Source: Amoebophrya sp. A120 (Eukaryota; Protista; Dinoflagellata). Taken from it: DNA of 64,000 bases. Location of the stretch: NCBI GenBank assembly GCA_905178155.1, contig CAJINV010000007.1, positions 2,151,151 to 2,215,150 of the forward strand, given 5' to 3'. Every line of letters begins with the position of its first letter. Position 1 is the first letter of the stretch. The translations under genes and the position numbers were made by a program. Below the pieces are notes generated by a model. It was not told the DNA's origin, ran no database searches, and saw only the letters and a program-made list of their open reading frames with translations. Positions 960 to 57,700 of the stretch are shown in pieces.

Positions 960-3900
960 TCACACCTCATCTCCCATGTACCGGTCTTCGAGCCAGCTTC
1001 GAGCGTACTCGTTTTGCAGCCCCGGGTCCAGCAGTTTCGGGTCGCCCTTGCTGGCCTTTTCGAAGAACTTTTTGTCGTCCTTTTTGGAGTCGGAGGGGTC
1101 GTGGTCGCACCGCCACGCGCCGAAGAGAAACAGCGCGAGCATCAGCGCTATCCCGAAAACGGACGCCGTGTAGATGATGAACCCGATGTCTGGGTCCATG
1201 ATGCTGTCCATGTAAGGACAGATCGACCGATATATGTTGTCCGGACACAGCGACACGAATATGCTCCGTAACGGGAAGTCACGGAATATGTTCTTGAAAA
1301 ACCCGTCCTCTTCGTGCAACGCGGACTGGATGTCCACCTTCAGCCCGTCCAGCAGTTGCAGCAGCTCGTCCGCCGACCGCGTGCTGCCGTCGCTGCTCGG
1401 CCGGAAGATCGTGTTCACGATCACCCCCTCGGTCGTCGCTGCGGCGCCCGTGCCCGTTCGGGCCTCGGAAATGGACGCGACGACAAAGGTTTCGGAACTC
1501 ACGCCCAGCAGCTGTCCCAGCTCGTACGTGAAGCGGTAGACGTAGTATTTCCGCTCCGGGTGCTCGTCCGAGCGGTTCCAGATCATGTTATTTACCGCCT
1601 CGGGACTGGACATCTTGATCGGGACCATCAGCGTTCGGCTGTAGATGTCTTCCACCCCGCCCTTCGTCGTGGTCAGCGTGTAGGTTGTTCCGTTCAAATA
1701 CGGGTTCACGCGGTGGCCGACCATGTGCAGCTGCATGTTGGGGTCCACGTCTGGGCTCGTCGCCGCGGCGCTCGACGCGTCCATGGCACCGGAGGATGAG
1801 GTGGACGAAGCGGACGCGTCGGTGGACACGAGCTGCACCACGTTCTGCGCCAAGGCCTCGGCTTCGCTCGTTGCGACCGTGGACTGGGTGGTGGAAAGGT
1901 TGGTGCCCGGCTCGATGAAGATCGGGCTCGTTCGCCCAGGCTTCAGCTGCGACGCGGTTGCGTCAATGAAGAAAGCGGGGTCGGAATAGCTGTGGTTTGT
2001 TCGTATTTTCGAATTCAATGTTGTACATGTAGTCATAATATAGAGAACGCGCACGAAGAGCGGTCGTAGTAGTTTGGAAAGAAAAAACCATCAAACTCGT
2101 ATATCCTTGTACCCGTAAGTCTCCTCATTCTCGCACCTCCCGGCGACCGGGATGGTATCCGGCGGACAGTGGGTCACGCAAACAGTCCCGTCCACCGCCA
2201 CCTTGCCGGGTGGGCAGCTGGGCCGGACGATCACCATCCCGACGTCGTAGATGATATCGCGATGCAAGACGCAGATCCGAAAAAACCCGGCTTCTAAACC
2301 AGTGACCCCGTGAAACGTCAGCTCGTCCGCACCCTGCGAGAGCTCCCTGGAGGTGTAGTTGCTGAAAAACCGCAGCTCCGCGAAGGGGTCGTAGTTGTAA
2401 AACGCCTGGCGCTATCCTGTGCAAAAGTATCGCACTCGTATTGCAATCATGCATTGCAAGTCTTTTTCTCAAGGTAAATCAGCATCACAGATTTTGTTTC
2501 TCATGCTGAGAAAATGCTATGCATTTATACGAGTACGATACTTTTGCACAGGATAGGTACAGGGTCAACGCGTCGATCGTGGTCGTCGCCGTCGCGGTCG
2601 TAAGGACGCGGGGCTCGGCGGATGAGGGGACATCTTCTTCGGGATCCACATCGATGTCGATGCCTGTAGATAATTGTCGTGTAAATAAGATGATGAAGAG
2701 TCATGTATTTGAGGTGGGGAAACTGGGTTCAGCCTCTCTTTTAAGTAATTTATGCTTTTCTTCGCAGACGTAACAATATTCGCCTGTTTCAACATGCTTC
2801 CATCACAAAAGTAACACGCGACAAGTGAGTCTCTTAGTTGCAGTATACCTTCCAGATTCCTTCCCTCGTCTTCTCCTTTCGCGGCCCAGTAGGCGTTTTC
2901 GATTTCGAACGCCGCGTTTTCCAAGGCCCGCTCCGTCTCGACCGAAAACTCCAACTTTGTCTGTTCCGATTCCAGCGCAGCTAGCGTCCGCGCTTTCCCG
3001 AAGTTCGCCTGTTCTACGTGGATATGCATTGCAAAAGTATCGTACTAGTATCCTATAAATCGCAATACAAATTTTTTCAGAAGGAAAAATGGAATTTGTA
3101 ATGCTGATTTCGGTAAGAAATAAGATTTGTCATGCATAATTGCAACCAGCCACCCCCCGGCGGAGGCCGCCGGGGAGGGGGCTGTTCGGTGGAGGTGTTC
3201 CGGTGGGGAAGGTGGCGCCAGCAATGACCGCGCGCCGCTACACAACCAAATAAAAAGAACCCGGCCCATGTTTCGGCTATGATCGGCACCATGCCCGGCC
3301 TTAGTAGCTGCGCGCCGTGGGAAAATGCGCACAGGAAACTATTTCCGGGCGCCAACGTTCAAGACGCCACAAGGGCGACGCACCTGCTGCCAGCGCGCGC
3401 GGTCGCTGTGGGAAAGAAGTTGCGGCCACCCTAGGTGGCCGACCAGGTTAAGGCGTGGCGCCGCGCCCCCTCTGGGGGACGCAGAGCGGCGCACGCACTT
3501 TGAACGCCCGCTCTGATCTGAAAGCGAAATAAAACAATGCCGGCCGGTCGCTGCGCCCTAGCGAGCTTCTTTAGGGGGCGCCGCGCGCAGACAAGTGGGC
3601 AGGCTGTGCTCCTGGAGGTGGTCCGCGAGAGGGTCCGCGAGAGGGTCCGGGAGAGGGTCCGGGAGAGGGTCCGGGAGAGGGTCCGGGAGAGGGTCCGGGA
3701 GAGGTTCGGAGAGGGTCCCGGAGAGGGTCCGGGAGAGGGTCGGAGAGGTCCCGAGAGGGTCCGCGGAGAGTTAAAATAGAGGTTCCCGGAGAGGGTCGCG
3801 GTAGAGGGTCACATAGAGGGTCGCCCTATACTACGCACCCTCTCGGACCCTCCCGACCCTCTCCCCCTACCCTCTATTTGACCTCTGTCCACCCTCTACC

Positions 3901-6900
3901 TACCCTCTTCGGGCGTATAGCGCCGCTATAAGGGCCGACATACTACCCACCCTCTCCCTACCCTCTCCTTTACCTCTCGCTTTACCTCTCCCCGACCCTC
4001 TATCTTTCCCCGACCCTCTACTTTACCTCTCCCAACCTCTATTTTACCTCTATGGAACCTCTCCCCACCCTCTACCGGAACCTCTCCGGCCCCGTTTTCT
4101 TCCATATATAAATATATTAATTAGTACGAGTACGATACTTTTGCACAGGATAGTGGATTCTGCGAAGAATTTCCGCGTCGAGTTGGTCCAGGATTTCGTC
4201 GATTTCCCTATCGGCTTGAGTCTTTTTAGATGCTGTGCCTCTACTTTTGCTGGAAGATGTACTGGGTGAAGATGATCCTGCTAGTATTTGCTCTTCGATC
4301 AATTCTCTTCTCTGCACCGGTTCCCCTGGGGTCTGGAACTCCCGGTAGGAAGCGAATTTGAATGCCGGGTTCAAAACCTCGTTTTGCGCCGCAAAAATCA
4401 TCTCATCCAGCTCCCGGCTTTCGACAATATCCGACCAATGTCTGATCCCGCCCCAGTAGTCGACCTCCTGCAGTTTTCTACCGGATTTAGATGACTTCGA
4501 CGTCCTCTTGTCTAGCTCTTTGTCCTTGCTACTGGCACTACCTCCGGGCAACGCAGCTGCGTTACTTGCAGCTGTGCACAGCATTTCGCTGCTTCCGCAC
4601 TTTGCCCACCCGACCTCGTTCATCTTCGCGGTTCTTCTTTCCTCTAGTCTTTGTCTCAGCTCCCGCTTCATCGTCCGCATGAATTCCTGTCTTCTCCGCA
4701 ACGCCCGGTCTTGCCGCGCGTTGGCCGCGTGGATTTCTAGGCGCTCCATAATCCGGTCGTGCTTCTTCACCTCCGCCTCCAGCCATTCGCTGCTGTGCTC
4801 CAGCGCCGCTTCCGGGACTTTCCCGTCGGGCGAGAAGGCCGCCGGGTTTTCCTTCAACAATTCTTCCAACTCCCGCCTCCTTTCTTCCCGTCGTAGCCGC
4901 CGGGCTGACACCACCGTCGCCCCATTCCCGTTGCTATCCGGCGCCGTGCCGTACAGGTTGGCGAACACCCGGAAGTTGTCCGGGACGGGCGGGCACTGCT
5001 CATCCAAAGGCACGAAACCCACGCGGTCGGCCTCTTCGAGCTGGAAACCCCGGATTTTCAGGGGGACCGGGGCACCTGAGGGCGTGGGAGGGGGGATTGC
5101 AGTTTTTCTTTTTTGTCCTCGAAAAGTTGGTTTACTAAAAAATTGCCAGGATTATTGATGCCAAAGAACTTCTGCACAAACTGGCGTAGATTTCATTTCT
5201 TCATCATGTGTGTAAGCCCGTGTAAGTTCAATCTTCAAAGCACAAAAACGATAAAACGAATCTAACTCATTGACGTACCATCCGGAGCCAAATCCGCGAA
5301 GCACCCGCCCTCCTGCAGTTCCTGCGTGCTGCAGGGGTTGGTGACGACATTTTGGTTGATCGTGCACATGGACATCCGGGGCTCGATCGTGCGCGTACCC
5401 GTTTCGTATTGGTACATACAGAACCTCTGGTTCAAGTGCGGACCGTCGCCGACCATTGGCGAGTTTTTCACTTTGGCTTGCTTGATGTTGTTCACACCGG
5501 ACTTGATCTGTGAAAATGGTTTTTGATTTTGGTCGTGGTGTACTTCTCATGCTCTTTAACGAAAGCCAGAACTTGGAAGACTAGAGTTGTCATGCGTGGT
5601 GCCATGCAGAAATATCAAATATGTACCTTCAACTCCGGGTCGTCCTGTTCTAACGTTGCCGGCAGCTGAAATCCCTGCGATTCCTGAATGGTCAAGGACA
5701 GCGTCTGGTTTCCCCGGAGCACCTGGCCCTGCGCGATGGAAATCGTCAAATCCTGGGTGGTCGGATTCCAGGTCGCCTCGTAGCCCTCGATCATGGCCGC
5801 GTCCGGCCCCGTCATGTGGATCTTCGTGTTCCCCAACGCATTGGTGAAGCCGTAGAGCCGCAAGACGATGTCGTCGTTCGGACCGATATCCACGGTCGGC
5901 TTGAACATCATGCTGAACATGAACGTGGACCGAGCGTTCCGGGGGTCGTAGGAGAAAGTGGAAATGTCAAACGACCGGTCGACCACCTGCGGAGAGGAGC
6001 GAATCGGCTGGGACTTGATGATCTGCTTCGTCGTGGTTTGAATCGTCAACCGCGGGTCGTTGGGGTCTAGCCTGCTGGGCAGGCGGAACACGACGTTGGC
6101 CTGGTTCGACTTTATCGTCATCTTGTGCACCTGGTTCGGCGGGATCTCCTCCCCGGCGCGGAGCGTTAGATCCAGGGTGGAAGCTTCCTGGTTCCACTCC
6201 CCAAAGTACTCGATCACGTCCAGAACCTGCGTGGCGCCGTTGGCTGCGGTAGTTGTGACCTGCACCGTCCTCCGGGAGAAATAGGAATAGTGCAGGAGCG
6301 ACTCACCAGGAGGTGGCTCGAGTTTTGGTTGGGCGACCGCGCAGATGAAACCTAGAAAAAAAAATTGGTTGTCGTGATGTGCAAACTTTTGCTACAATGG
6401 ATTCGCTCAATCAGCCAGAAAGCGCTGCAGCATAGCATGCAGTGTAACCTTACGCACGATGGTATGATGCGTAGCGATAACAATTGCGCAGGAGAGCGTG
6501 AAGGAGAACATGATGCGCGGTGGGACGACAACGCATTCTTACGCTATAGACCAAAAAACTACACGAAGAAACCACAAAACAACAAACGGATCATCCGTTT
6601 CTTTACCCGGCAAAGTCAGCCGTATTGTCGTTCCACTTGGCAACGCGACGTTGGTTGCGAATTCTATCGTCAGATCCATGGGTGAGTTCGGATGCGCCAC
6701 CGACCCGACGGCACCGTAGGACAGCTGCGACTCCGTGAACTGCTTCCCCATGTCGTTTACCCGAGTCGTGAAATTGAACAGTTGCTGCGGAATCCCCGCC
6801 GCGGGGACGGCTATCTTCAAAGACGGGTCGTTCAAGTACATCGCGAAGGGAAGTTTGAACCTCTGATCGTACTCAATGAAGAAGATGGTCTCGACCCCCG

Positions 6901-9900
6901 CTGGCACCGGCGCCAAATTTGGGATGATCTGCGCCCGCAACTCGGACGAAACCGAGTCCCAGTACCCGGAACTGTAGGTGATCGCGCCGGAAGTGATGTT
7001 GGTGTACGCAAACATGGGTGCGTTTTTCCCGGATAAAGTGATGATCCCGGATTCTAGATTACCCGTTCCCACATCTCGTGTCAGCCCACCCATGGTGATG
7101 ATGATGGTCGAGTTCGGCCGAATATCGGAGTTCGCCTTGAAGTTGAACATCACCCTTGCGATGGAATTCGACAGCGTCCCCTGCGGCCCCGCGGCGGATT
7201 CAAACACCATCTCGCTGTTCGTGATGTACTTTTTCCCACCGAGTGCGGGCGTTTTTTTCAACATCTCCTTCGCGATGTACGCGCCGCGGCCCTCTATGTT
7301 CAAGATCCCGTCGTTCTCGGACAGTTTGTCTGGTAACCGGAAGCCCTGGTTTATCTCGATGCGGAACACCGTTGCTTGGGTTCGGTGGAGGATGTGGCCC
7401 TCGCGCACGCGGAGAGTCAAAGTATAGGTCGATTGCGTCCAGTCGCCACGGGAATGCGAGCCGTAGGCGTAGAACCTGTTTTATTTTTGAGAAGTTTGGA
7501 TCATCGAAAGTGGGCAGAAAAATGGACCATCTCTGGTGATGTCATGCGTTGTTTCACAAGACAAACCTCTTCTTGTGCAGATAGGTACCAAGTCCGCAAC
7601 AGAAAAATTTCGCCCCACGACTTACACCTTAAGTAGAACAGTATTTTTACCTAAAAGCATCCGCCCCGGTCAGAACAATTTCCCGACTGCTACACCGGAA
7701 TCCGTACAGGTACAGCAACACCTCGTCTCCCTGGTAAAAGACAATCGACGGCTGGATCGTGAAGGTGACGTTACTCACCACGTCCGGCTCGTTGGGCGAA
7801 AACCGGATTTCCGACCGCGTGAACTCCTTTTGTCCGTTGTTGATCGCAGTGGAGGCCATGATAGATCGCTTCGGGGACTCCACCCCGTCCCAGTCGCGGT
7901 TCCAAATCAGCAACGACGGGTCGTTCTCGTACATCGCCGGAGGGATTTGGAGGTCGACGAAAGTGACGGAAATCAGATTTGGCGCTTGGGAATACAGCGT
8001 CCGGATGACTTTCACAGTGAGTTCGTTCCTGGCCAGGTCGAACACGGCCTCCTGGTTGCGGAAGTACTGGATGTAGCTGCCTACTAACGGCACTTCAATA
8101 ATCTCCGCACTGAAACCCGGAAGACGCAGGTAAATCTGGATAATTTTGTTTTGTTCGCAGGTTAGGTGAGTTCTATCATCTTTTTGTTGATGTAATGCTC
8201 ATCGATCCTCAGCATGGAATTTGCGAACGCGATGCAGAATCAGGCATCGAAGAACGATTTGGTACGTAATAAATGCAGAATAATCACAGCAAGCATGTAA
8301 TATACCAAGCTGTCTTTCCAGAGTGGTGTGTTTGTCTGGAAGGTGAGCGTCACATCTACGTAGGTCTTCGTCATCTCTGCATTCTGTCTCGCCGAGCTGT
8401 ACTGTAGCCGTGACTGGAGGAACATGCGCATCTCTTGGATCTGGGTTTCGAGTTTTTTTGGGAAAAAGTTTGATACGATGCATGGCTTCAACGTTGAAGC
8501 AAACTTCTTTGTCATGCTAAAAAGAGCAGCAAAACAAGAAACAAGAAGATCCACTATCAAAAATCTAAATCATCTCTCTACCCTGTCACTCTGGAAGACC
8601 GGGGTTGGCTGGATCACTTCGTCTACCCCGTCGTAACTGAATGCTGCTACTTTAAGCCGGTTTGAATTCGAAGGCAACGAGTTCGGCAGAATGAAATCGT
8701 CCTTGATCGTCTTAAAGGTGATCATCTTCGACGGCGGCAGCACGGAGTCCGTGCGCAGGAAGAAGGTCAGCGCTTTTGAGGTGTCGTTGTACATTGCGAA
8801 GTACTCGAAGAGCACCCAGTCACTCCCCTCGGTCTGGAAGCCGACGTTTCCCGTCATGTCGGAAGTGCTGGTGGCGGCTGTAGAAATGTTTTCGTTGCAC
8901 ATGCATGCTGCACACTGAGCACGACGCAAAATTTCTTTTCATCTCCTTTTTTTTGCAAAACCTGAATGACAAACTACCATGATTATGATAACAAGCACCA
9001 CCACCACGAAACAAAAAAAAATACAGCTCGACGACAGGAAGTTTTGCCAGCTTTCCGACTGGATGTTCCGGGTTAAATCGGGCAGATACGCCACGATCCT
9101 TGCTCCGTTCCTCAACTCGCTGTTGACCTGTACCTTAATGGACACAACCGATTCCGCGTTCGACAATGCGGGATCGAACCTGACTTCTACGTGCGTGAAG
9201 TAATTCACCCGGATGATCTGCGGCACGGCTTTGATGGGTTGCGGCGTCCCGTTTTCGGGTAGGGTGTAACTGTTGGTCGGCTCGGTCCCGAGCTCGTTGG
9301 GCACGTAGGAGAGCTGACTGGCTATCAACGTGAAATCCAGCGGGTTTTCCGATAGCTGGTCCGGCAGGACGAAGCAACACAGCTCCAGATTCGCGTTCGC
9401 CGAGTGCAGAATTTCGTACTTGTCTTTCACTTTCAATTGCAAACTGTACTGCACAAAATCGAAATACGCCGGCGTTTCAAACAACCCGTTTTGGTCCGTG
9501 TTGTACGCCGTCGTGGGGTTCTCCCCCACCGCCGGCTGGTTCGTGCCCGTCACCTCAATTTGCCTCTTGTTCGGGTCCGTCGGGTGGGGTTTCAGGTTTG
9601 AGGGCAGGCCAAAGCCCGGGAGGGCGAAGGTGAGGGCCACGAGTTCCACGGAGTTCGCGACTTGCTTCAACGTGATCGAGGGTCGGAGGATGATTGTCAA
9701 CTTCGCGGTGACACCAGGTCCGGACGGGTTGTACGCGAGAACGGAGACGGGGAAGGTTGGGGGACAAAGCTCTTTACGGAATTGCTGGTAAGCGTCTTCC
9801 GTGCAGACGTTCTGGTGTTATGATGTTTTTGTTGTCCCTTGTTAATTGTCATGTAGGATTCTACGGAGAGAAAGCAAAGCATTTCTGTTTCTCAAGCATG

Positions 9901-11214
9901 AGCATGACACGAAATAACAAATTCCTCTAGCGAAATCGAGGCATACACGAATATTCATACCTGCCACACCGCAGCCACTTGCAATTGCCGCTCCGCGTGT
10001 GCTTCTGCTAATTCTCGGCCCTCCAACCCGTCTAATTTCACGTCGTCCTTGATTTGTTTCAACTTTTCTTGCCAGAACACGGGTAAGAGCTTTTCCCGCT
10101 CTTCCTCTTCTGTGCTGCTTTTCGTTACGATGTCAAACGTTGGCGGGTTGTCTGTGTCGTAATTTCTGTCTAAATTCGTGGAGTCCGATGTTGTCCCTAC
10201 AGACACGACCCCGTCGCTGTGGTAGGCAAACTCATCCTGCAGTTCCTGCTCCAGTTTCCGTTTCTTCTGCCGCTTCTTCTGCTGGTACTGCTTCTCGGCT
10301 AGATGCGTAGCGGTTTGCTGAGAGGACGAGGTGGTGGATAGGGAAGCTGTAACACCGACCGAAGCGAAGTTGCTAAATGCAGCTATGGTGGAGGCGAAAA
10401 GCCCAAATTTGGTGCTCCTCGACGACGCTGATGCTGTGCTGTGTGGTCCGTCATGTCGTTTGTTGCACCGGAACGAATTCAAATTCTTGCCCTTGATATT
10501 CACAAACTGGTGCTGCCTTGGACTTGTTGGGGGTGTTTTTCTTTTCGGTTTTATGGTCATAGCAGGATCATTTTCTTTGTGCTGTCCCGAGAAGCAATTG
10601 CTGGAAGAAGAACTGCTCGGTGAAGGTGGAGATGACGGAAATGTTTGTTCTCTTGGCGTTGTTTTCGTCATTAAGTTTGCAGCAACATATTGTTCCCTCG
10701 GTCTACTACCTTGCTCCTCTTCGTCTTCCTTCGGAACCATGTCGAAGTTGCCAAGCAGTGGCGCAGCACTGGTCATCCGTATTCTTGGCAGCCTGTTCAT
10801 GCGGTCAACCTTTTGAATTTGATCAAAGACGTGCAATGAGGGATGTGCGCGTATGAAACTTGCAGAAGCTGCTTCTGGAATGCACCTTGGTGACGGGGGC
10901 TCTGCAACTCTCGATGTTCTGCAACTCGCGCTGGTGAAACTAACGTCAAAGCTATCTCCACTGCTGGGTTTGCTTTCTCTTCCTGGTGCATCAGCATCTT
11001 GCGTCGGGGGCGCACCTATCCTAGCCAAAAAAGAAGGCCTGCCGACCTCGCCAGCAGTGCTCGTGCAGCCCGGTTTATCCGCAAAAAAGGATTTTGTTTC
11101 TTGACCTCCTCCACCAGTCGGGCTACATCTTGACGTTTGCTCCTGCGGCCCTCCAGAACAAGTTTGTCCTCCTGTACTGGAGGGCGAGGAGCCACCTGAG
11201 GAGAAAAGGCCCAT
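960..11214 (-). CDS. Giant (~2,425 aa) multi-exon membrane/surface protein with ~7 beta-rich repeat modules and a C-terminal TM helix
   Basis: Deduced exons: 11214-9961, 9784-9025, 8877-8582, 8440-8306, 8135-7651, 7475-6607, 6351-5627, 5507-5279, 5075-4153, 3017-2849, 2663-2556, 2407-2113, 1989-960. They sum to 7278 nt and stay in frame. Ten introns are GT-AG and two are TIR introners. Recurrent motifs: LTFALPGF, IYLRLPGF, VLLYLYGF, IRLTLPGF, IVLRLYGF and NDPxLxI. TM segment IGFIIYTASVFGIALMLALFLFGAW. Confidence 0.8.
2413..2555. mobile_element. Introner (MITE-like intron), family A, 143 bp
   Basis: TIR tatcctgtgcaaaagtatcgcactcgta (2413-2440) and tacgagtacgatacttttgcacaggata (2528-2555), 27/28 matching. 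Degenerate 5-bp TSD ggcgc/ggtac. Removal gives in-frame ...ALTLYQAFYNYDP... Confidence 0.9.
3146..4124 (-). mobile_element. Non-autonomous Helitron-like element (979 bp) nested in an introner
   Basis: Inserted exactly at an A|T site that is empty in the sister copy (ctcgta|ttgcaa), with no TSD. The minus-strand 3' end is CTGG, preceded by the hairpin CCCCGGCGG-CCT-CCGCCGGGG (3155-3175). The 5' end is CTAATTAATA. Confidence 0.75.
3615..3770 (+). repeat. 12-bp tandem array (GAGAGGGTCCGG)n
   Basis: Directly visible, about 12 units. A degenerate complementary ACCCTCT-rich array follows at ~3836-4090. Confidence 0.95.
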
Positions 11215-12171
11215 CCTGAAGAATTCACTTCAAGATGGGACCTCTGAGTTCCTCCACCTATGATTTTCTAGCATGCAAAATTTTAATTTTGTTGAATTCA
11301 TCATGCGGGTACGTGAGGGTGCGCTTTGCAACATATGGAGGGGTACTCCCAGGGACGAAGGAGAGAAAAGAGCTGTGAAATGTCGTGATCATGTGTGCCC
11401 TCTCCTTCACGAATATCATATAATTTGAATTGCAGCTCACTCCGACACGTACGACGATTTGCGTTTGCACAATACCACACGACGCAGCTGGAAAAGCAAA
11501 ATTAGTCTCCACCTCTAGCGATATGAACTCCAACAAAATAACGAAGGGAATCATTGTTCTTCACTCTGCAGAACCATAGTGGCGCGCTGCTCCCTCGTCA
11601 ATCAACTCTCCTCTAAAAACTCACACTCATTACACTCATTCACTTCGATGTCTACTTCCACTCGCGGTCCTCTATCTCGATCTCGAACTCAAGCGCGCTC
11701 GATTAGTTACGCTCGCTGTAGTTGAATTGATGTTTCCGCTTAGAAATAGCAGCGCTTTGTTTCTTGAGAACATCAAGGGGACCGCATATTACCATGAGAC
11801 ATTGACATTTGCAAAGACTTGCCGTTTGCGTTTACCGCCCTATAATTTGGCTTTTTTTATATAATTGGTCGGAGAAGATGAACGAGATGTTGTTGAAAGA
11901 TTGCGACCAGATCATTCCTGCAGTGTCTTTTTGAAGATTCACCAAACTTTCTCCTACCCAGGTCCACGCTCTCGAAAAAGTGCATTTTCGTGGTCCATGT
12001 TGGTGCGGAAGAAAAGGCACAAAAACTTGCTGGACGTACAACTCATCATTGGATGCCATGTTGAGCAGCAGTTATCGGTGTCAGCACCGCCCCGCCGCGT
12101 TAAACAGAATCTCTATGGTTATCATATGAAATAAGCCTACTCCAGGAGACCGTCCACTCTTCGCACCCTCG

Positions 12172-13578: not shown

Positions 13579-14450
13579 GTCTCTTGATGCCCGCGGTAGT
13601 CGAATGGCTTTAGACAGGTTTTTTTTACTCGCGATTTGGATTATTTGCACTGCGTGCTGCTCCCCGGTCAATTCACTTTCGCACAAATAAACGTGGTCGT
13701 GGTGGAGGTGGACCCTCGAGCCACCAGAAAGTAGTGGTGGCAGGAAAGGCACGCGTCGTCGATGAAGATGCTACGATTTTTGCGGTTGGGCGGACTGAGT
13801 AGCGCAGCAATAACAGTTTGTCATGGTAGAAAATTGTTGTGCAGGAGCAGAAGTGGTTTGTACTTATTTTTGTTTTCACCTTCACGTGTCTATCAGGATA
13901 AGCGATCACGTTCTAACTTGCGCTTGTTGTCGAGAACCGTAGTCACTTGTCACCGTTCGTTAGGGGGCCAACTCAGATGCATTTGATTTTGTGTTTAAAT
14001 TTTTTCAGCAATAATCTCGCCGCAAATTATACGGAAACATGATTGATGCGCCAGCCTCTTTGAAACCACAAGCTTTGCAGCTCCATCTCCAACGAGCAGC
14101 GACTCGGAAAGGCCGGCCATATTTGCACTCTTTTTCTCTAAAATTGAACAAGCAGGAGATGCAACCATCTTCAAAAACAAAAAATTTGTTTCACGAGCAA
14201 AAATGCTTGAGAGGGAAAAAACGCAGACCGGCGGGTCACGTCGCGTCGACGTCGTGGTCTCACACCAGAGCAGCCGCACTTTGTTCGCCTGAATCTTTCA
14301 TACGTCAACGTCGCCATTCCCGAACACATCCAAATGACATGCTTTCTACGAGCTTTTCGCTTGTCTATGTTTTCGCTTTGGAGCCGTAAAACTTGATGCG
14401 ATTCTGATTTCCGCGCTGCATACTTTGTGCTTGTGATACCTATGACATTT

Positions 14451-16951
14451 TTACCCAGTTGTCTCTACCTGAATCTTTTCGTATTTCATGTGAAACACAT
14501 CTTCTTCCATTTCCCCATCACATGTGTACGAAACCTCCCTCAGAAACTTCCTTTCCTCCTCTGCTCCAGACACGCACAGTGGCACCAGCGACGCACTGTA
14601 TTCCTGCGCTGCAATATGCACTGCAAATTGAGTATCTCAACATCTTTTTCTTTATCACGTGCGAACTGCAAACAACAATAAACATGGTAAAAACGAAGTC
14701 ACTGTCACTGACTCCGTGCTTACTACAAAGTCATACATTTTGATTCATATTCCTTTTTGTAAAAACACGACCGGCATGTTGAAGTAGAAGTAGTATGAGC
14801 GCGATACTTTTGCAGATGATATGCCGTGGCTTTGATCAGAAAAGCCTGGACCTGGTGGGGAAAGAGAATGCCAGTGATCGTCACATGGTGCCGCTCGATG
14901 TCAGCTTCTTCGCTTTCGTTTTCCTCTAGAGGAATGTCAGTCGCTTGCTTCGCGTGCTGTTCTTTGTTCTGGTCCTTCTCTTGGTTATCTTTAGCGTCTG
15001 CTTCCGCGATTATGTCTTCCATAGGGTCATCCTCATCCATGTTCAACTTCATAGGCGCAACCTTGTCGTCGCTGTTTAACTTCGGCCGTGTCGTGCTCTT
15101 ACTCGTCGCGTTTTCATCTTTTTTGCTCGAGTTACCCTGCTTGCTTGAAGATGTTCCAGCGCCTGCTCCCGCGGCACCAGTGTTGTTGCTGCCAGTACTA
15201 TTGCTCATCGCGACCCCCTTCACCGTTTCCACCATGGTTTTGGCACTACACCGCTTGTAGCTGGCGTTTAAGAAGGGTCTTTGCGCCACTAGTCTCGGCA
15301 CCGGGTTTTTGGTCGGGTGTTGCAAGTAGCTGCGAACCTGTTCCATGCGGTACACGTCGGCGAATGCCGCAACCGCACCAACCCCTTTGACAAAAACCGA
15401 CGTGTCCGAGGATTTTCTTTTCCCGACGGCCACATTTGCCCTTACCCCACGGTCTATGTTCAGGAAATTCTCTAGCACTTGCCTGTTTTCGAACTGATTG
15501 CTGTCAAGAACCCCCGCTCTCTCGCCGCCCGCAGCCGCGGTCGCGGCCGTTTGCTTTTTCAAATCGAAGCTCTCGGCGGGGCAGTCGAAGGGCACCTGGT
15601 GCTTCTTCAATAAATCGCGAAACTCTGGCTTCGTCGGGGACGCGTGGATCTCCGTGTCTGACCGGAACATCACCACCATGGACTGCCCGTGGTCTGCGAC
15701 GAACATACTGTTGTGATTCGCGTTCATCTCGTCCAACGCAAGCTCGTCCGAAGAATCAAAATCATCGTCGTCGGAGGCAGATGAGTCGCTGATGATTTTG
15801 TTCGATGGTGGTTTCCTAATGTTTTTCTTATTTCCGCCCCCGCTCGCCGCGCCTCTTGCAGGCGTTTGGAGTTGGAGCTTTGACATTTTGTTCTTTTCAC
15901 GACCGTTGGGAAGGTTCTTTTTGTCATTATCATCATCCACCTCCTCCTCGTCCTCGCTAAACGCGACTTTTCTCCTGCTTTTCGGCATCCTGTTCTTTCT
16001 TCGCAGTTCCATCTTTCTTTCCCGTTCTCGCACTGCGTCCCCGTGGTCGCGGGCAAGTCTGACCAGGTCCAGAAACGCGTGCGACCAGCTTTTTGCAATC
16101 TTCTGGACTTCGTGCTGGTGTGGCGGGATAAGTCTGTTTTGTTGATGTCCTCCACCTCCTATGGCGTTCTGAGAAAGAACCTGACCCTGCTCTATTGCAG
16201 CGACGCTGACCGCATTGAATTCGTAATATTCCAAAGCTGCGTTCGTGTGGGCCATGCACATAGCGATTTGCTCCAAATTTTCCTCCACGTCGATATGCTC
16301 CGAGATCGGGTGTCGCTCCAGTAACCGTCTCACCTGGTTGAAATCTTCGGGTCGAAACGACCCTAGACCCGGCGCGGTCAGCCACTTGAAACTCCAGTCA
16401 TCGGCGGCGAAATGGAGTTTCTGAAACACTGCGGTTTCGTCCCGCGCGAGTAGCTTATTCCCGTGTTTGTTGTACTCACTATTCTTGTAATTATTTCCGA
16501 GAATATTCGGCGAACTAGACCAGTGCTTCGACCGTTTTCTCTTCGACTTCTGGATGGACCGAAGCAGGATATTATGCTGCTCTAGAAAGTGGTCGCGGTT
16601 TCCTCTCCCTCGTCTGCCCGTCGACTTCGCGCCGAGCAATGCTCCTCTGCGCTTCCGCTCCTCGATTTGCTCCCTTCCCGGCGTGGAGAGGTGTTGGTGA
16701 TTGTCCTGCTCTCCGTCGGGATGGTTCCTCACAACCTCGTTGCGCTGCTTCGCCCCGAAATACGCATTCACGCTTTCAAACTTGTCCTCGCTTGCGTTTA
16801 ATATTTGGTGACCTGCAGCGGCACTGGACGAGGACAACTCAGCAACAGGATCACCTCCCGCTGCTAGATCTTTCGCCAACCTTTCCCGTTCTGCGGCTTC
16901 CGCGGCCCTGCGCTCGCGCAGCTGCTGCTTGATCGCCACGCGGGCACGCAT
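14451..16951 (-). CDS. DONSON: DONSON-like (downstream neighbour of SON) replication factor
   Basis: Motifs DWSFK, SWSHAFLDL, SPTKPEFRDLLKKHQVPF, VFVKG, PRLVAQRPFLNAS and VTITGILFPHQV occur in the DONSON order. The last exon (14609-14451, AQEYSASLVPL...FLREVSYT) joins after introner removal. Confidence 0.7.
14615..14821. mobile_element. Introner with family-A-like TIRs, 207 bp
   Basis: Right end gcgatacttttgcagatgata; left end tatgcactgcaaa. Degenerate TSD tgcaa/tgccg. Removing the element plus 5 nt gives an open 53-codon terminal exon. Confidence 0.75.
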
Positions 16952-44200: not shown

Positions 44201-44973
44201 GTTATCGCGGTCACTTTGACGAACCAATTTGGATAGGGAATGAAGTTCTGCGTGCAGGAGATGAACTCCACGCGGCTGTTGAAGTACTCGTTCCCGGGGA
44301 CAAACCGAATGCACTCGCAGAGCCACACGGACGCTAGCCCGGATAACAACGAGAAGGCCAGCACGAGAAACCCGGGGATCAGCCAGCCGCCCTGGACGAA
44401 CACAAGCGGGATTTGGGCCAAACCCGCCCCGACCGTGGTGTTCACGATGATGGCGATGCCGCCCCACCACCCGATGTTTTTCGTCCCGAAAAGGAAGTGC
44501 GCGGAGGGGGTGATGGGCGTGATGTTTGTCTCTCGGGCGGAATCGAGAGACTCCCTACTCGCGGACCTGGCCCAGGATAACGATCGACCTAGAGGCTCCG
44601 AACGGTCGAAGGAAAAGGATCGTATACAAGAAAAAAACGGCTGTAGCTGTAGCTGTCGTGGGGGGACAGAGACGGCTTATCAAATTTGTAGTTCTGCATG
44701 ACAGAGAAATCCTGTCGTGGGGGGCGGCACCTAGCACGTGAAAACACGGACGAAATAAAGAGGAAACCGTGGCCGCTGGCCAACATGACAAATGTAACTG
44801 TGCTGTAGCATGCTTATTTGCCATGCAGCCTTACGCTACAGGTACAGCACGCAGTCTTTTTTTCTTGCGATAGATCGGGCGGGCCGGTTAATCTGCTCGG
44901 GGTAGGTGTCGATGGAGAGTTCTCGGGAAAGCCGCTCCCGCGAACCCGAGCCGGACGCGTTGCGTTTTAACAT
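41259..44973 (-). CDS. Amino-acid transporter (Aa_trans/AAAP family)
   Basis: Motifs IGWWGGIAIIVNTTVGAGLAQIPLVFVQGGW, RVEF, IIPSWLNEKSPEVSV and GVPLCSIVCRYNL. Exons 44973-44873, 44617-42499, 42288-42269, 41984-41780, 41643-41259. Confidence 0.9.
41990..42268. mobile_element. Introner family B, 279 bp
   Basis: TIR tatccggagtaaaaacgtccccacgccagagt and actccggtgtggggatgtttttactcaggata. Exact TSD gtaca at 41985-41989 and 42269-42273. Removal gives SMSLCTVIYLTVG. Confidence 0.92.
44623..44872. mobile_element. Introner family C, 250 bp
   Basis: Imperfect ~35-bp TIR tatacaagaaaaaaacggctg and cagtctttttttcttgcgata. Exact TSD gatcg at 44618-44622 and 44873-44877. Contains an in-frame TAG. Removal gives RPARSFSFDRSEP. 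Confidence 0.85.
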
Positions 44974-49081: not shown

Positions 49082-49703
49082 GTTGGAAAATTCAGGAAAG
49101 GCTTAAACAGGCGTTTCGTTATACAGTCGTCGGCGCTTCGTTATACAGGCAAGGCTTAAAAGCGAATTGCTAATATGTTATTGGGGAGCAGCCGGCGTTT
49201 TGCTTCTGGAGCGCGATGCTAAAAATGCTTCTTCGGACTTCGGGTGGTCGAGCGGTGGGCGTCTATCTGCCCCCCGACTCGGACTCGAAACTGAAGCCAC
49301 GCACTCGAAACTGAAGCCACACTACTGGTAGCTTCCGGCAAAAATATTGTCACTCAATTAAAGAGCGAAGACCGGTGTCGCTCTTGCTCTCGGACGACTT
49401 CGGTTCCACTACTTGTTCGTATAAGAGGTTTGCTTGTGGCCAAGCGGAATGAAGTTGAAGTTAAATCATGAACATGAAGAGCTTGTCAACATAGCCCTCT
49501 CGAAGCGTGAGAAGATCATCGATGGAACAAGACACTCGATAGAGAAATAGAAACTTCGACCGGCGATTTTCGTGGACGGACATCCATTTTCACGATGACC
49601 GGTACCGGACTAGTCAATCCATTAACTGATAATCATGAATTTCCTTTCGTGCTTTGTTCTGGATTCGGATTCTTTCTGTCCACAAGCACGATGAAAGAAT
49701 AAC

Positions 49704-51548: not shown

Positions 51549-51728
51549 TATGCGTTATTTTATAAGTAGCATGAAAAGCGTAAATACGCTTGTGAAAGTA
51601 CCGAGATACTTTTGAAGACCGCAGGCACGACATCAACTTTTGTTTGACCACTAGGACCACTATTTCCCAACCAGCCGGCTTCATGTCAATCCCAACAAGG
51701 TCACTTTTGTGTGCGCAGTAGCTGCTTT

Positions 51729-54700
51729 CTAATCTACCTCAACATCTTCCACTTCTTCATCAGCAGACGAATTTCCCTCCTCATCTTCTTCCTCCTCTTC
51801 CAGTTCCGCTCCAGCATCAGGATTCTCCTGGTGACCCCCGTTCCCTCCGGGACCGTCCGCGGAGGGCGTCACACCGTCCGCGCGATCAAAGAAAATCTTG
51901 TCCCGGGCGACGTCGAAGCTGTGATTTTTTAAGGCATGACGACGGTCGAGAAAAGGAAATATAACCACAATCCTGCAAAAATCATCTAAATCACGATGCA
52001 AAAATGCTACGTATCGAAGATTTATCCAAAAACAATAGAAAAAAGCGACGTAGGAGCGTCATTTGTACAGTTGTGGAATCCGTAGAATTTCGCCGTCCAC
52101 GTGTCCCAAAATCTTCTCATCGATCTGCGTGTCCGGCAGCCTAGCAAAATCCTTCGCAAACTTACAATACTCGCGAAAACTCTCTTTCGCGTCTTCCTTC
52201 GAAATTGTCCCGGCTTTTTCCCACTCCGCGGCTTCGTAGTCCGGATCCCGGAGGGCCCATTTCTGTTCGAAACCTTCCCGCACGTCCGCGGCGAAGTCGA
52301 GAGTGGGTGTGCCTCCGCTCGCCGTTTTCCAGATACTGTTGTCCGCAGCCTGCCAAGGATGCAGCGCGAGGCTGCCCCGAAAGGAGGTTTTTGCAGGTTC
52401 TCCGATGGTGGAGGGACTGCACGTTTCTGATTTATTTTTCGACGACGCGCTCCTCGGATTTCCATTTGCATTTCCATGAGGTTTGTCCAAATCAAGGTAT
52501 GTGGTTTCGGGGTTTTTGCACGTCATGGGCGGTTCCCCTTCTATTGTCCCCGAGATGAACCCAGTCGGCTCCCACTGCAGATCATCTCTACTGCACGTCG
52601 AAGCAATCGCCACTTTCAGCCGGCCGTAAAGCCGGTAAGCTTCGAACGACTTGTCGAACACAAAGCTTGCTGCGTTGTCGATTTGCGCAGGGTAGAAATC
52701 CGTTCCCGGCTCAATCACGTGCGAAAACTTCGGAGCTTTGATGCGCGACCAAAACGTGTCTATTAGTGGAGCCTTCGACGCATTTTGATTTTCTTTACCT
52801 TTGGCCACGGAAGAAGTTGAAGATGATGCACCAGACGACGCAACAGCTTTAAGATTTTCTCTCCCTCCAGCTCGGCGTCGTTTTTCGCTGTCAGTCAGGG
52901 GAAAAATCCCACTTTTCGGCCGTAGCAGTCGCATTGCTTTTTCCGCTAGTGTCGGTACCGCGCGGAAGAGATTTTGCGGCCGGAGCAGAACGTCCGAAAC
53001 AGTGAGACCGCTTTTCGTGATATCCTCAGCGGTAGGATCCATTTTGTGCTTGTCGCTTGATGAAGATATTGAAGATTCTACGGCTTTTTTATCCTTCTCC
53101 TCTACTTCAGCGGACACCCTTGAACCGGGCTCCTCTTTCCCCAAGTTGCAGTCGCGAAAAATCCGCACCGCGTAGCGCAGGTCCTTGTGCTCGCGGAAAT
53201 CGCTTATGGGTGCGCTACTGCAGTAGATACTCATCAGGTGGCCCCCCGCAGTCGCCTCTTTGAACACTTTCGCCATGTCCATGTGCCCGGCCTCCACCAT
53301 CCGCTTCGTGCTCTCCACGGGGTTGCCCTGGTAGTGTAGATTGCCTACAATACCGATCTGCCCGTTGAGTTCCGGCCGCGCGGACAAGTTGTCTACAAAA
53401 ACCAGCGTTCCCGGGGGGAGAAACAGAGCCGGGTTGGAGGAGGCGGGGGACCCTGCCCTACTCGGTGCGGACGTCGGTGTCCAGGCTGATTTGCGCTTTT
53501 TCAGTGCGGCCGTCCCTGGTGGTACAACTGCGGCGGGAGAATTCATTCCTCGCGGACAGTTCGGCGTGACCGCGACGGTGTTTGCGAAAAGCGTGTGCGG
53601 CGAAGAGTAGGCGTCCAGCGACGTGTGCTTCTTGATCTCGGGAATGAACGCATTGGGTGGCGCTTTCATGTTTCGGAACAACTCCTGCAACTTGAAGTTC
53701 ATGTGCTGGTGCAGGTCCCCAAAGAACGTGCTCTCTTGCACCAGGTCGTCGTGCTTCTTGGTCAAGTGCTCTGTGGAGAGACGCGCGCGTCGGCGCCGCG
53801 CGACCTCTCGTCTCCGCACTGCAGCGTCCTCGTCGGTGAGGGTTTCGCCTTTCAATGTGAGTTTCTCGAGGAGCAACTTGTTTGGGTTTGCCTTGCACTG
53901 TTTTGTGTTGACAGCTTGGTCCTCTTTCGTTGTTTTTTTGTTTTTGAAGAATGCGACTTCTTCCACGACTTTCTCTTCCTCGTCCCGGTCTTTGCAGAAC
54001 TTTTCGAATTCGTCCAAAATATTGATCGCTTTGCCGCCCAGATCGTTACACGGACGACGAAACCGCCGACGCAGCGGCAAACTCGCTGTGGTCAGCAGTG
54101 TTAGCTGGTATTGCATTTCCTCCGTGACGCTAGAAGAGTACGGATAATCGTCGACAAAACAGGGCCCACGCCATGCGTCGTGACCGCGAACGGTGCACCG
54201 CTTCTCGTAGTGATTTACGTATCCCGAATTGACGCCCTTCATGCACTGCGAGATCGAGTTGTCGTCGCCGTGGAGAAACAAGGAACGAAGTTTCACACTC
54301 AACGGGCAGAAAAAGTTGGGATGCGCAATGTCTCGGACTCCATAGACAAAGGTCACGTATCCCTGCGCGTCCATGCAGCGTTCGACGTCTGTAAAGGGAA
54401 ATTCGTTGTTTAGCTCACCGTTCAGCTCATCCGTGTGGAGTGGCTGGCTGCCGTAGCGGACGGAATGCAGCACCGAGTCCCTCTTGTAGCCATGCGCCCG
54501 GAAGTAGTCCAGTCGTTTTGCGTAGGAGTCCGGCCGATTACGCCAGTAATCGATTTCTTCATCGCTGATTGGCATCTGTATCATGTCGTCGTGGCGGATG
54601 TCCAGGTTATTCTCATGGGCCGCCAGCGCACTGCGAGCAAATCTACGGGCAGCGTCCATTTCGCGACGTGCAAACTGCTGCTCTTTCTTGGATTGTTCAG

Positions 54701-57700
54701 CGGTTGGTGTTGCGCCGCATTTGCGTCGTCGTCCGGCCTGTCGGAGGCTAGTTTCCGGATACAGCCGGGCATACCGGTGCGAGGCCTCAAGGTCTTCCGA
54801 CCAATGGCTGATGTCCCGTTTCGGACGAAACTGCTCCCCGGGCGCGGGGGCCCGTGCCCGATTGCGAGCTGTTATGCGAGTCATGTTGGCGACATCCAGC
54901 GAATCTGACCTCGTATTCAATGCCGAAGCGACCGTTTGCGAGAAAAGTGAAAACGGCCCGGCGAGAAGTTTCACGAAGTGCGTATGGTGAATGGCTCCTC
55001 GCGACACCAAGTCGCTCCAGGAAAACTCGGCTTCGTCAATGTTGTCATGGCCGAGCATCGCGGCCAGCCGTCCCGGTTCGAAATCCTGCTGCTCGTCGGC
55101 CCAGTCGTTGCCCCAGGGAAAATATCCTCTCGCAAAACTGCTGGTGTACCTACTATACTACGTACCAATCGATGCACTCGCATGACCTTTTTAGTTTTTC
55201 ACTTGTGGGAACGGTAAGATTAGTGAACGAAAAATTCAATTTGTACGTGGAAGTAAAGACGCTTTTGCAAGAATATGAGTGCATACAAAAAGTTCCAAAG
55301 GAAAGGTAATGTCGCCGATGCGGTGGCCAATGTGATTGCGTTTTTGCCGGGCCTCCCACGTGTCGATGTCGCACACATCGTTAAAATTTTTCGCCGGTAC
55401 ACAGTTCAGTGCGCTCTTCTGGCCAATCGAATGTGTTCCCCAGTGTACTTTGCGACGCCATTCTTTATTAGTCGTACCACGCAGATAATTCCGCTGCCGA
55501 AACTGCTGCGCCAGCAGGTCTGCTAACTTAAGGGTCAAAATTTCAACTTCTGGTGGCGCAGCCTGTCGTTGTTCTTCTGCGAGAAGTGCACTGCTGTAAC
55601 TGTCGTGGCGAGACGCGCACGCGAAAAAAGCATTGTTTGAAGCACCGCCGAGGGCCAGGGAGTCAGGGTCAGCGTCGCTGCTTAGAAAAGCCGGCAACGA
55701 CACCTCGCGATCTCCATGCAGGCGGCGAGCGACCACACCCGCAATAAACGGGTCGACGTCGATGGGGTTCAAGTGGAGCCAGCAGTCGATCATGTGCCTG
55801 CGTTTGGGTGGATCCGCTTGATTCAGCCTCTTTCCCTCCGCCAAGGAAGCCACACAATTCGCGTAAAGGTACCGCATCGCATTCGCATCTTGAGACAACA
55901 GCGAAACGACGTCTCCGCGCGAATGAGTGTCCTGGTAGGGCATTCGAACAAGGAGTAGCAAGGGCCACAACGGTGACATGAGTGCCTGGACGATCACGCG
56001 TTCGACGTGTAGCTTAGAAGCTGCAAAACGATCCAACACGGCAGCGTCGAATGGCATCGCATCTTGACAATGTGCAAAAGGTTGCTTGCCGTTGCTCTCA
56101 ACAGTAGCTCCCGCGTTCTCGATGTAAGTGAAAACAAGCGACAAGACATCTTCTTCGACGTTCACCACCAATACGTCACTGAGCAACAGTCGGCACATGT
56201 AGATGGGTGGAAACCGCCACGGGTTCTTTAGATGTTTGCAGAAAGCCGGACAGTCGAGCGCCGCCTGAAAGTTGCGCGCCAGAAAAAACAAGCAAATTTC
56301 CTCAGCCGTTGCCCGCACCTCGGGAGAGAACTTTAGAAGCAGTTCCTTCATGAAGAGAAGGTCGTAGTAGTTTGCCAGTACCACCGCAATGGCCATCCGC
56401 GAGAAGATTGTTATCTGCAGCACCTCCGCGATTTTCAGTAAAGGAATGACGGACTTCAACCGGTCCGAGCGGATTTCGTCGAAGATAGCTGCGTCTGTTG
56501 CCTTTGGAGCATTTGGATCGTCTTGTGGTGAAGCAGCCGCACCATCGGAGTCTGCGGGACTCACTGACGCTGCGGTCGATTTGGTATTCGATGCGCCGAA
56601 GAGACCACCAGCCAGGGGCACTACACTGCGTGCTTCCTGAAAGATGTTCACCGTCTTCGCCGCGTCCTTCTTTTTTTGCACTTCCGCGATTGCTTCTTCC
56701 CGCGACATGTCGCCGATGATGTTTGTCCGGAACCATTTCGCTAGGTCGCCCTTCCCGGATTCCGCAAATTCCATTTCATACATAAACTTTAATATCGTTT
56801 CGAAGTACGGGTGCGTTTCGGCTGGCAGCAAGTCGTCCAGAGCGATGGACCACGGTGGAGTGCTGGAACATGATCGAAGGTTCTGGTCATATTGTCCCGC
56901 CACCGCCGACGTTTCCGTTTCGCTGCGGTGCTGAAACAAATCGCTTTCTGCCCGTTCCGCCGTTCTCTCGAGGAAGTCCGCTCTTGCTTCGAAGAAGTGG
57001 CTGTGCTTTGTCAGCACGCGAACTGGGGCACAGTAGGTCTTATCACCAACCACGATTTCAAGTATCTTCTTCGAAAAAGGCGACCGATGCGCTTGAACTT
57101 GTTCTCGCGCTGCTTCGAAAGCAGAGGACGTGGCACGGCCAGGACCGTCACTCGTGATCCCTGTAGTTGCAGTTGCTGCCAGCGGGCCGGTGGTCGACGG
57201 AACCGCTTCCCACGGTTTTCGTAGATTCTCGAGACCGTCGCTGACTTTCTCTTCCTCTGTCTCAAACGTCGTGGCTCCGTCGTCAAAGGAAAACGTGTGC
57301 GAGAACGCCAATTCCTCGTCCACCAGATCGAACTGCTCCTCGTCAGTGACGACAAAAGTGCTGTTCCCAAGCGTCGAATACTCGCAGCCGTCCGTAAAAT
57401 GCTCGTCCTCATACTCGTCCAGGCCGACAACCACAGGTTTCTTGTTACCGGTATGGAGATCTTCCGGAACTGGCTTCGGGTCGTTTCTGTCTACTTTTCC
57501 GCAGTAGAATCTCCCCTGCACAGAAAGCGCAAAGTCGATGTCCGCGCTTTTAGCTGCTGCTGATGAATTTCGTGAAGGAAACAATCGAGTGAACGCTTTT
57601 TCTGGCGTCGAGTCGTGCGTCTGCTCTTAAATGGCAACCAATAGTGCCTCAGAACGCTTGCTCAAAAATTGCAAGCGGTTTTTGCACGGGGCGAATGCTG

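What the first reader, a model, noticed from the sequence alone, without database searches (positions are those of the whole stretch)
2408..55275. Introner system: unrelated MITE families with TAT...ATA termini and 5-bp TSDs act as non-GT-AG introns
Seen: six elements (2413-2555, 3023-4152, 14615-14821, 41990-42268, 44623-44872, 55123-55275) interrupt four otherwise intact genes. All begin with TAT and end with ATA. Three have exact 5-bp TSDs and two have 3/5 matches; in those five, deleting the element plus one TSD restores the frame and a sensible protein. The interiors fall into at least three families. Known: introners with inverted and direct repeats are reported in Amoebophrya genomes. 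Inference: one transposase type mobilises all families. TAT termini with a 5-bp TSD do not match Transib (CAC), Ginger (TGT) or LTR elements (TG..CA). Removal may be guided by the TIR stem rather than by U1/U2 dinucleotides.
Basis: partly seen in the sequence, partly recalled or inferred. Interest (0 to 1): 0.88.

Follow-up and report, generated by a model that had tools for sequence, protein, structure and literature searches.

The report
Known Amoebophrya introners, confirmed spliced out
Six small transposon-like inserts in four genes of the parasitic dinoflagellate Amoebophrya A120 are the non-standard introns already published for this genome; RNA shows two of them cut out cleanly without GT-AG ends, likely by a relaxed spliceosome helped by their paired ends.

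Summary
The feature is real but already known. The window is Amoebophrya sp. A120: three annotated proteins map to it exactly. The six elements are the introner elements of Farhat et al. 2021, who report the TAT-N7-AAA ends, 3-5 nt direct repeats, hairpins and missing U1. Gozashti et al. 2025 list an A120 family with '5-bp TSD, TA/TA termini'.

RNA contigs from 4 of 4 runs (2 samples, 1 study) skip elements 1 and 2 plus exactly 5 nt, with no GT-AG register. Public gene models remove elements 3-6 the same way.

Corrections: element 6 ends at 55285, not 55275, and then has a 4/5 TSD. Families are not unrelated: elements 1 and 2 are one family in opposite orientations. TA..TA ends match IS3EU/GingerRoot (TSD usually 6 bp).

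Small additions: diverged TSD copies place the cut 1-2 nt before TAT if one register holds. The 1-nt register gives N-T-A, a canonical donor with relaxed G. Equally strong exonic hairpins stay in the mRNA, so a stem alone is not the signal. The machinery and the transposase remain untested.

The parts
2413..2555 (.). Element 1: 143-nt TIR element, 29-nt near-perfect TIR, TSD copies 3/5 (2408-2412, 2556-2560); intron removed = 148 nt
   Evidence: RNA joint 2407->2556, slide 2, in 4 of 4 runs
3023..4152 (.). Element 2: member of the element-1 family in the opposite orientation, with a ~976-nt insert (3144-4119); TSD 5/5; intron removed = 1135 nt
   Evidence: RNA joint 3017->4153, slide 6, in 4 of 4 runs; DNA contigs of other copies jump 3143->4119/4120
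14615..14821 (.). Element 3: 207 nt, degenerate TIR of the element-1 type, TSD 3/5; 212 nt missing from RNA
   Evidence: depth ratio gives 211.5-212.4 nt skipped in X3, X4, X6; P0003 uses the non-canonical register; a GT-AG pair of the same length exists
41990..42268 (.). Element 4: 279 nt, 32-nt TIR, TSD 5/5
44623..44872 (.). Element 5: 250 nt, TSD 5/5
55123..55285 (.). Element 6, corrected: 163 nt, TSD 4/5 (55118-55122, 55286-55290); inner TAT at 55275
960..11352 (-). Host gene 1 (no Pfam hit in 7 ORF pieces): transcript with 12 introns, namely elements 1 and 2 and 10 GT-AG
   Evidence: 9 GT-AG joints shown; the tenth (8878-9024) inferred from record lengths
14451..16951 (-). Host gene of element 3 (P0003, CAD7955583.1, 762 aa, unnamed)
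41259..44973 (-). Host gene of elements 4 and 5: amino-acid transporter, Aa_trans PF01490 (P0001, CAD7955601.1, 942 aa)
51729..55877 (-). Host gene of element 6 (P0005, CAD7955609.1, 1276 aa, unnamed)
6836..7280 (.). Control: exonic inverted repeat (arms 6836-6859 and 7257-7280, -30 kcal/mol) that stays in the mRNA
   Evidence: RNA pieces run unbroken over 6605-7473

Best explanation
These are Amoebophrya A120 introner elements, short non-coding inserts with TAT...ATA inverted ends and 5-bp target duplications, that are removed from the mRNA together with one duplication copy at non-GT-AG junctions (shown for two, annotated for four), likely by a modified major spliceosome, and that were likely spread by an integrase-like cut-and-paste transposase encoded elsewhere.

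Shown: (1) the boundaries and TSDs; (2) many dispersed copies of the element-1/2 ends; (3) removal of element+5 nt for elements 1 and 2; (4) one family is removed in both orientations.

Inferred: (5) the 5' cut lies 1 nt before TAT, so the element supplies U+2/A+3 of this genome's GTA donor while G+1 is relaxed; (6) the 3' cut is set without AG, 4 nt beyond the stem, so 1+4 nt equals one TSD and the exon is rebuilt exactly; (7) the mobiliser is a GingerRoot/IS3EU-like DDE enzyme.

Odds: identity as A120 introners about 0.97; spliceosomal removal with stem help about 0.6; the 1+4 register about 0.5; integrase-type mobiliser about 0.55.
For: Identity: P0001, P0003 and P0005 are named Amoebophrya sp. 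A120 and map exactly to the window. Farhat 2021 section 11 gives TAT + 7 nt + at least 3 A, direct repeats of 3-5 nt, and 29,850 repeated introns in 1954 families; Fig. S19 legend gives 5-bp direct repeats.

Splicing: joints 2407->2556 (148 nt) and 3017->4153 (1135 nt) in 4 of 4 runs; the other 13 of 15 joints shown are GT-AG. None of the 3 + 7 possible registers is GT-AG, GC-AG or AT-AC. A GT..AG pair of 149 nt at element 1 would shift the frame and is not among the 15 joints shown. DNA run X1 carries the elements, with no differences in its long contigs (table 8). The AT5.2 homolog P0002 aligns without gaps across element 4's junction (69% over 175 aa).

Register: RNA at element 1 allows 0-2 nt of upstream TSD in the intron; the models allow 1-5 at element 6 and 0-4 at element 3. 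The overlap is 1-2. Register 1 gives NTAT at all six, and a true GTATGC at element 6. Canonical donors here have T+2 in 15 of 15 and A+3 in 14 of 15. All 9 predominant A120 motifs in Farhat Table S4 have T at +2, and all 9 A25 motifs begin TT, where elements begin TTA.

Stem: end duplexes are -16 to -49 kcal/mol for 6 of 6 elements against -2.8 to -13.7 for 15 of 15 canonical introns.

Machinery: 83 of 89 spliceosomal proteins and U2/U4/U5/U6 are reported in A120.

Mobiliser: IS3EU/GingerRoot have TA..TA ends; A120 family 38 has TIRs, a 5-bp TSD, TA/TA termini and Copia/Gypsy-like ORFs.
Against: No call tests the machinery: no lariat, branch point or knockdown data. U1 was not found in A120.

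The register rests on one RNA junction plus two gene models and assumes a single register; Farhat calls the sites variable relative to the hairpin. Table S4 motifs may reflect aligner placement inside the TSD, and 8 of 9 also have A at -2, which the mirror-image register would give.

The RNA evidence is contigs from 2 samples of 1 study, labelled 'RNA?'. Contigs drop rare variants, so imprecise minor products could be hidden. Raw-read runs X11 and X12 laid 0 reads.

Element 3's 212-nt skip also fits a canonical GT-AG pair (14807 to 14596). At element 6 the outer TAT is not in the predicted stem.

No transposase or integrase was found in 27 of the window's 74 long ORFs scanned, no genome was held, and Farhat found no transposase in A120. 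The TSD is 5 bp, not the 6 bp usual for IS3EU/GingerRoot.
Confidence: 0.58

Rival explanations
1. The elements are cut out by a spliceosome-independent, hairpin-triggered system like SOS splicing (unknown nuclease plus RTCB ligation). The clean junction seen is the main or decay-surviving product.
For: All six have terminal stems; one family is removed in both orientations; there is no GT-AG; U1 is unreported. SOS splicing is triggered by inverted-repeat pairing in animals (PMC12779559 passages).
Against: SOS splicing is imprecise and leaves indels, whereas one exact junction appears in 4 of 4 runs (contigs hide rare forms). Exonic duplexes of -25 to -40 kcal/mol in 6 of 6 continuous RNA pieces are not removed (best-of-many, GC-rich windows). 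The T+2/A+3 match to the donor would be a coincidence. AKAP17A, CAAP1 and RTCB were not searched in A120.
Confidence: 0.2
2. A dedicated nonconventional machinery, as in Euglena, reads the paired TAT-N7-AAA motif and cuts at fixed spacers from it, independent of donor-like bases.
For: Euglena nonconventional introns need a paired motif with asymmetric spacers (3 nt and 5-6 nt; PMC12501133 abstract). Here 10-11 of 12 ends share TAT-N7-AAA and the spacers are asymmetric (1-2 and 4-3).
Against: At element 6 the annotated 5' cut is 11 nt from the best-paired TAT but sits on a perfect GT donor. A25 uses a different motif and A120 lists a GG/CC-ended Mutator introner.
Confidence: 0.15
3. The elements are removed by ordinary GT-AG splicing at nearby sites, are retained, or sit in pseudogenes.
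For: In-frame GT/GC-AG pairs exist within 30 nt of the ends of 5 of 6 elements; one matches element 3's 212 nt exactly. Farhat finds this IR/DR layout in 15% of A120 canonical introns.
Against: RNA joints for elements 1 and 2 are non-canonical in every register. Depth inside element 2 is 0-1.2 against 26-411 in exons. Element 4 has no in-frame canonical pair within 30 nt. Gene models use the non-canonical register for elements 3-6.
Confidence: 0.03
4. The elements are assembly artefacts, or are excised from DNA so that the 'spliced' contigs are empty alleles.
For: Runs X3-X6 are only guessed to be RNA; the joined form in other runs was not given (table 5b); 99 joints were hidden.
Against: The same contigs skip the GT-AG introns, so they are cDNA. 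X1 contigs bridge element ends into both flanks and cover element 3 intact (records 1, 2, 8).
Confidence: 0.02

Closest known systems
Amoebophrya A120 introner elements / non-canonical introns (Farhat et al. 2021, PMC7789003)
   Same: Same genome; TAT-N7-AAA inverted ends; 3-5 nt direct repeats with a 5-bp example; hairpin; many families; non-GT-AG removal supported by RNA; MITE likeness and a U1-free mechanism already proposed.
   Different: Nothing in kind. The text I could read leaves the border position unknown; this window narrows it to 1-2 nt before TAT if one register holds.
A120 introner family 38 and other TIR families (Gozashti et al. 2025, PMC12130899, Dataset S2)
   Same: '5-bp TSD, TA/TA Termini'; TIR DNA class; families of similar lengths (about 150, 210, 250, 280, 1180 bp).
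   Different: Family 38 is about 808 bp with Copia/Gypsy-like ORFs; none of the six has a frame over 125 aa without a stop. I could not match elements to their families (no sequences in the rows read).
IS3EU/GingerRoot DNA transposons (PMC10045372, PMC12730594)
   Same: TA..TA termini with TIRs; integrase-like DDE class.
   Different: TSD usually 6 bp against 5 bp here; no transposase seen.
SOS splicing of C. elegans and human cells (PMC12779559)
   Same: Inverted-repeat elements removed from mRNA without GU-AG.
   Different: Imprecise, with indels; here one exact junction restoring the exon.
Euglena nonconventional introns (PMC12501133) and Fritillaria non-canonical introns (PMC13326754)
   Same: Genome-wide non-GT-AG introns beside canonical ones; paired ends with fixed spacers (Euglena); an adapted spliceosome (Fritillaria).
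   Different: Different motifs and lineages; both have experimental tests, A120 has none that I found.

Membership tests
A120 introner elements (Farhat 2021) | Located in the A120 genome | tested here: met
   P0001, P0003, P0005 map exactly
A120 introner elements (Farhat 2021) | Terminal inverted repeat starting TAT + 7 nt + at least 3 A | tested here: met
   11 of 12 ends as given; 10 of 12 with the corrected element 6
A120 introner elements (Farhat 2021) | 3-5 nt direct repeat at the exon/intron boundary | tested here: met
   5/5 x3, 4/5 x1, 3/5 x2
A120 introner elements (Farhat 2021) | Removed from mRNA at non-GT-AG sites | tested here: met
   RNA joints for 2 of 6; size only for element 3; gene models for 3-6
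A120 introner elements (Farhat 2021) | Repeated in the genome | tested here: met
   Elements 1 and 2: 44-90 contigs with other flanks per end. Element 3 barely above single-copy depth at 92% likeness. Elements 4-6 not tested.
MITE (non-autonomous TIR DNA transposon) | Short, non-coding, TIR and TSD | tested here: met
   143-279 nt for five; element 2 is 1130 nt with no stop-free frame over 125 aa
MITE (non-autonomous TIR DNA transposon) | Cognate autonomous transposase with the same ends | not testable with these tools
   No genome held; no transposase in 27 of 74 window ORFs scanned
IS3EU/GingerRoot | TA..TA termini | tested here: met
   12 of 12 ends; feature
IS3EU/GingerRoot | TSD usually 6 bp | tested here: not met
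   5 bp; 6-mers do not match at any of 6. Not filed as a member.
IS3EU/GingerRoot | IS3/IS481-like DDE transposase | not testable with these tools
   No autonomous copy in reach
SOS-spliced transposons | Imprecise excision at several sites with indels | tested here: inconclusive
   One exact joint each, but contigs hide minor forms; raw-read runs laid 0 reads
SOS-spliced transposons | Dependence on AKAP17A, CAAP1, RTCB | not testable with these tools
   Needs genome search and knockdown
U2-type canonical introns | GT/GC...AG ends | tested here: not met
   0 of 10 possible registers at elements 1 and 2; open for element 3
U2-type canonical introns | Lariat and branch point | not testable with these tools
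   No lariat data

The most novel reading that the evidence does not exclude
A120 splices its introners with a fixed '1+4 ruler'. The spliceosome cuts one base before TAT, keeping only U+2/A+3 of the donor (the same N-T-A that A25's TTA ends supply), and places an AG-free 3' cut four bases past the terminal stem. Any element with these ends and a 5-bp TSD is then silent in either orientation, and the spreading agent is an undescribed 5-bp-TSD GingerRoot/IS3EU-like transposase.
Probability: 0.35. Interest if true: 0.6.

Novelty: already known. Interest (0 to 1): 0.22.

Why it matters
The phenomenon is striking, but it was published for this genome in 2021 and extended in 2025, so the finding itself adds six examples to about 30,000. 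What stays open is how these introns are cut out. The one usable idea here is cheap: elements whose two TSD copies have diverged reveal the true cut position. Applied genome-wide to existing RNA reads, that would separate a relaxed spliceosome (fixed N-T-A register) from SOS-like hairpin excision (scattered cuts).

Tried and rejected
No whole genome was held, so no genome-wide scan or transposase search was possible.

Raw-read runs X11 and X12 laid 0 reads: no test.

One search mixed DNA and RNA runs, and repeat hits crowded out the joints (15 of 114 shown). Length arithmetic alone gave 101 solutions and was superseded. Both read-laying runs went on the first 19 kb, so elements 4-6 have no RNA test here.

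X5 depths around element 3 come from several contigs and could not fix the register.

A de novo TAT..ATA scan gave no convincing seventh element. The best other pair, 24008-25682 (15/20, TSD 4/5), does not fit the motif and is left as chance. At threshold 13/20 the scan also missed elements 3 and 6, so other degenerate elements may be unseen.

A search for a protein over 1806 aa for element 6's gene found none; one search then found the 1276-aa model. My first readings of element 6 (153-nt element-only removal; GC-AG 156 nt) were dropped: the second hits a stop and the model shows 168 nt.

Branch-point motif hunt: AYGAC 12 in the sense strand of 15 canonical introns against 3.9 in shuffles, but 6 antisense, chosen post hoc; YTRAY was under-represented. 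Not used as support.

A Pfam scan of element 2's frames did not run, so its lack of coding capacity rests on frame lengths only.

Both look-ups of earlier findings were empty. Gozashti file 3 was the wrong dataset.


Full report
Observation. All six elements begin TAT and end ATA at the stated coordinates. The flanking 5-mers match 5/5 (elements 2, 4, 5), 3/5 (1, 3) and 0/5 (6). Eleven of 12 ends fit TAT-N7-AAA. Three such pairs carry a perfect TSD, against a mean of 0.003 and a maximum of 1 in 300 shuffles (pattern chosen post hoc). In DNA run X1, long contigs match the window without differences and run into the element ends, and 44-90 contigs leave the window with unrelated flanks exactly at 2413, 2555, 3023 and 4152. 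Summed depth over those ends is thousands of times single-copy depth; the tool warns this is not a copy number, but the ends are clearly those of a dispersed repeat.

Source. No genome was held. Protein searches returned P0001, P0003 and P0005, named Amoebophrya sp. A120 by their sources, and these map exactly to the window.

Splicing. RNA-type contigs X3-X6 (2 samples, 1 study; labelled 'RNA?' but skipping GT-AG introns) show joints 2407->2556 (148 nt = 143+5) and 3017->4153 (1135 nt = 1130+5) in 4 of 4 runs. The other 13 of the 15 joints shown (16 in all) are GT-AG. None of the 10 possible registers of the two joints is GT-AG, GC-AG or AT-AC. For element 3, depth ratios give 211.5-212.4 nt missing in three runs. 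That fits element+5 but also a canonical pair of exactly 212 nt; the public model uses the non-canonical one. Elements 4 and 5 are removed +5 in P0001, and the AT5.2 homolog P0002 aligns without gaps across element 4's junction. The models were built from transcript alignments (Farhat section 25) but are not direct evidence. Raw-read runs X11 and X12 laid nothing.

Element 6. P0005 removes 168 nt. This points to an outer TAT at 55285: a 163-nt element with a 4/5 TSD, so it follows the same element+5 rule.

Families. Elements 1 and 2 are one family in opposite orientations (74% over 117 columns), and both are removed from the same transcript. Element 2 is a short member with a ~976-nt insert that other DNA copies lack. 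Element 3 shares the TIR, and element 4 shares two short interior motifs with element 2. At least three interiors is fair; 'unrelated' is not.

Mechanism. Where the two TSD copies differ, the mRNA shows where the cut falls. RNA at element 1 allows 0-2 nt of the upstream copy in the intron; the models allow 1-5 at element 6 and 0-4 at element 3. If one register holds, it is 1 or 2. Register 1 gives N-T-A-T at all six, matching the canonical donors of this window at +2 (15 of 15) and +3 (14 of 15), and gives a true GT donor at element 6. All 9 predominant A120 motifs in Farhat Table S4 have T at +2, and all 9 A25 motifs start TT, where elements start TTA; aligner placement could contribute to this. 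All six elements have end duplexes stronger than any of 15 canonical introns. However, 6 of 6 continuous RNA pieces contain exonic duplexes of -25 to -40 kcal/mol that are not removed (best-of-many windows, so a soft control). I therefore favour a relaxed major spliceosome reading N-T-A, with the stem placing an AG-free 3' cut (about 0.6), over SOS-like excision (0.2) or a Euglena-type code (0.15). This step is inference; nothing here tests the machinery.

Mobiliser. TA..TA ends are the mark of IS3EU/GingerRoot, whose TSD is usually 6 bp; here it is 5 bp, so I do not file the elements there. Gozashti 2025 describe A120 family 38 with TIRs and Copia/Gypsy-like ORFs and label it 'Ginger; 5-bp TSD, TA/TA Termini'. 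They also list a Mutator family with GG/CC ends, so one enzyme cannot explain all A120 introners. Farhat found no transposase in A120, and I found none in 27 of 74 window ORFs scanned.

Literature seen. PMC7789003: abstract, sections 10-12, 16, 25, 32, passages, and supplement text (legends S19-S25, Tables S4, S7). Its figures (Fig. 3 logos, S23, S25) were not visible and may already show the register. PMC12130899: main-text passages, supplement file 1 passages, and 50 of 58 A120 rows of file 8. Passages only: PMC10045372, PMC12730594, PMC11453091, PMC11282704, PMC12779559, PMC12005148. Abstract and outline only: PMC12501133, PMC13326754. Roy et al. 2023 was not read. In searches (one search listed 20 of 231) I saw no paper stating the N-T-A register or naming IS3EU for Amoebophrya; that is weak evidence of absence.

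Verdict. Observation confirmed with two corrections; interpretation partly supported; already known. Interest 0.22. The most novel reading not excluded, a fixed 1+4 ruler with a 5-bp GingerRoot-like mobiliser, has probability about 0.35 and would deserve about 0.6.

Noticed in passing
window 3144-4119: Insert inside element 2: GC-rich, multi-copy (X1 pieces at depth 155-361 against 26), with a 12-nt tandem array (3620-3810) and an inverted counterpart (about 3950-4092); no TAT pair at its own ends.
   Followed up: partly
elements 1, 4, 5: CAYGA lies 39, 39 and 38 nt from the 3' end on the transcribed strand in three different elements; a possible branch or protein-binding site, found post hoc.
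   Followed up: partly
window 55878-57626: The frame of P0005 stays open about 580 codons upstream of its annotated start (1799 aa once the 168 nt are removed), so the public model may be 5'-truncated.
   Followed up: no
window 49700-51400: Very GC-rich repeat block (89% GC at 50001-51000; periods 85-119 nt), unexplained.
   Followed up: no
window 19375-19887: Tandem array with 16/23/62-nt periods, open in several frames.
   Followed up: no
15 canonical introns, window 1990-18635: Short (106-255 nt); 3' ends are mostly A/C-rich rather than polypyrimidine; YTRAY is under-represented.
   Followed up: partly
window 46379-47152: Asp/Glu/hydantoin racemase domain (PF01177, E 7e-18) in a eukaryotic parasite; origin not examined.
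   Followed up: no
window 2412-2559 and 4154-4155: RNA contigs join element ends to unrelated sequence: other copies retained in some transcripts, or DNA in the runs (table 7).
   Followed up: no
P0002, P0004: Homologs of two host genes carry nearby gene numbers (g4881, g4874), hinting at synteny; P0002 is from strain AT5.2, P0004's organism was not looked up.
   Followed up: partly
window 21065-23341 and 27328-29937: RING-finger protein and a weak triose-phosphate-transporter match.
   Followed up: no
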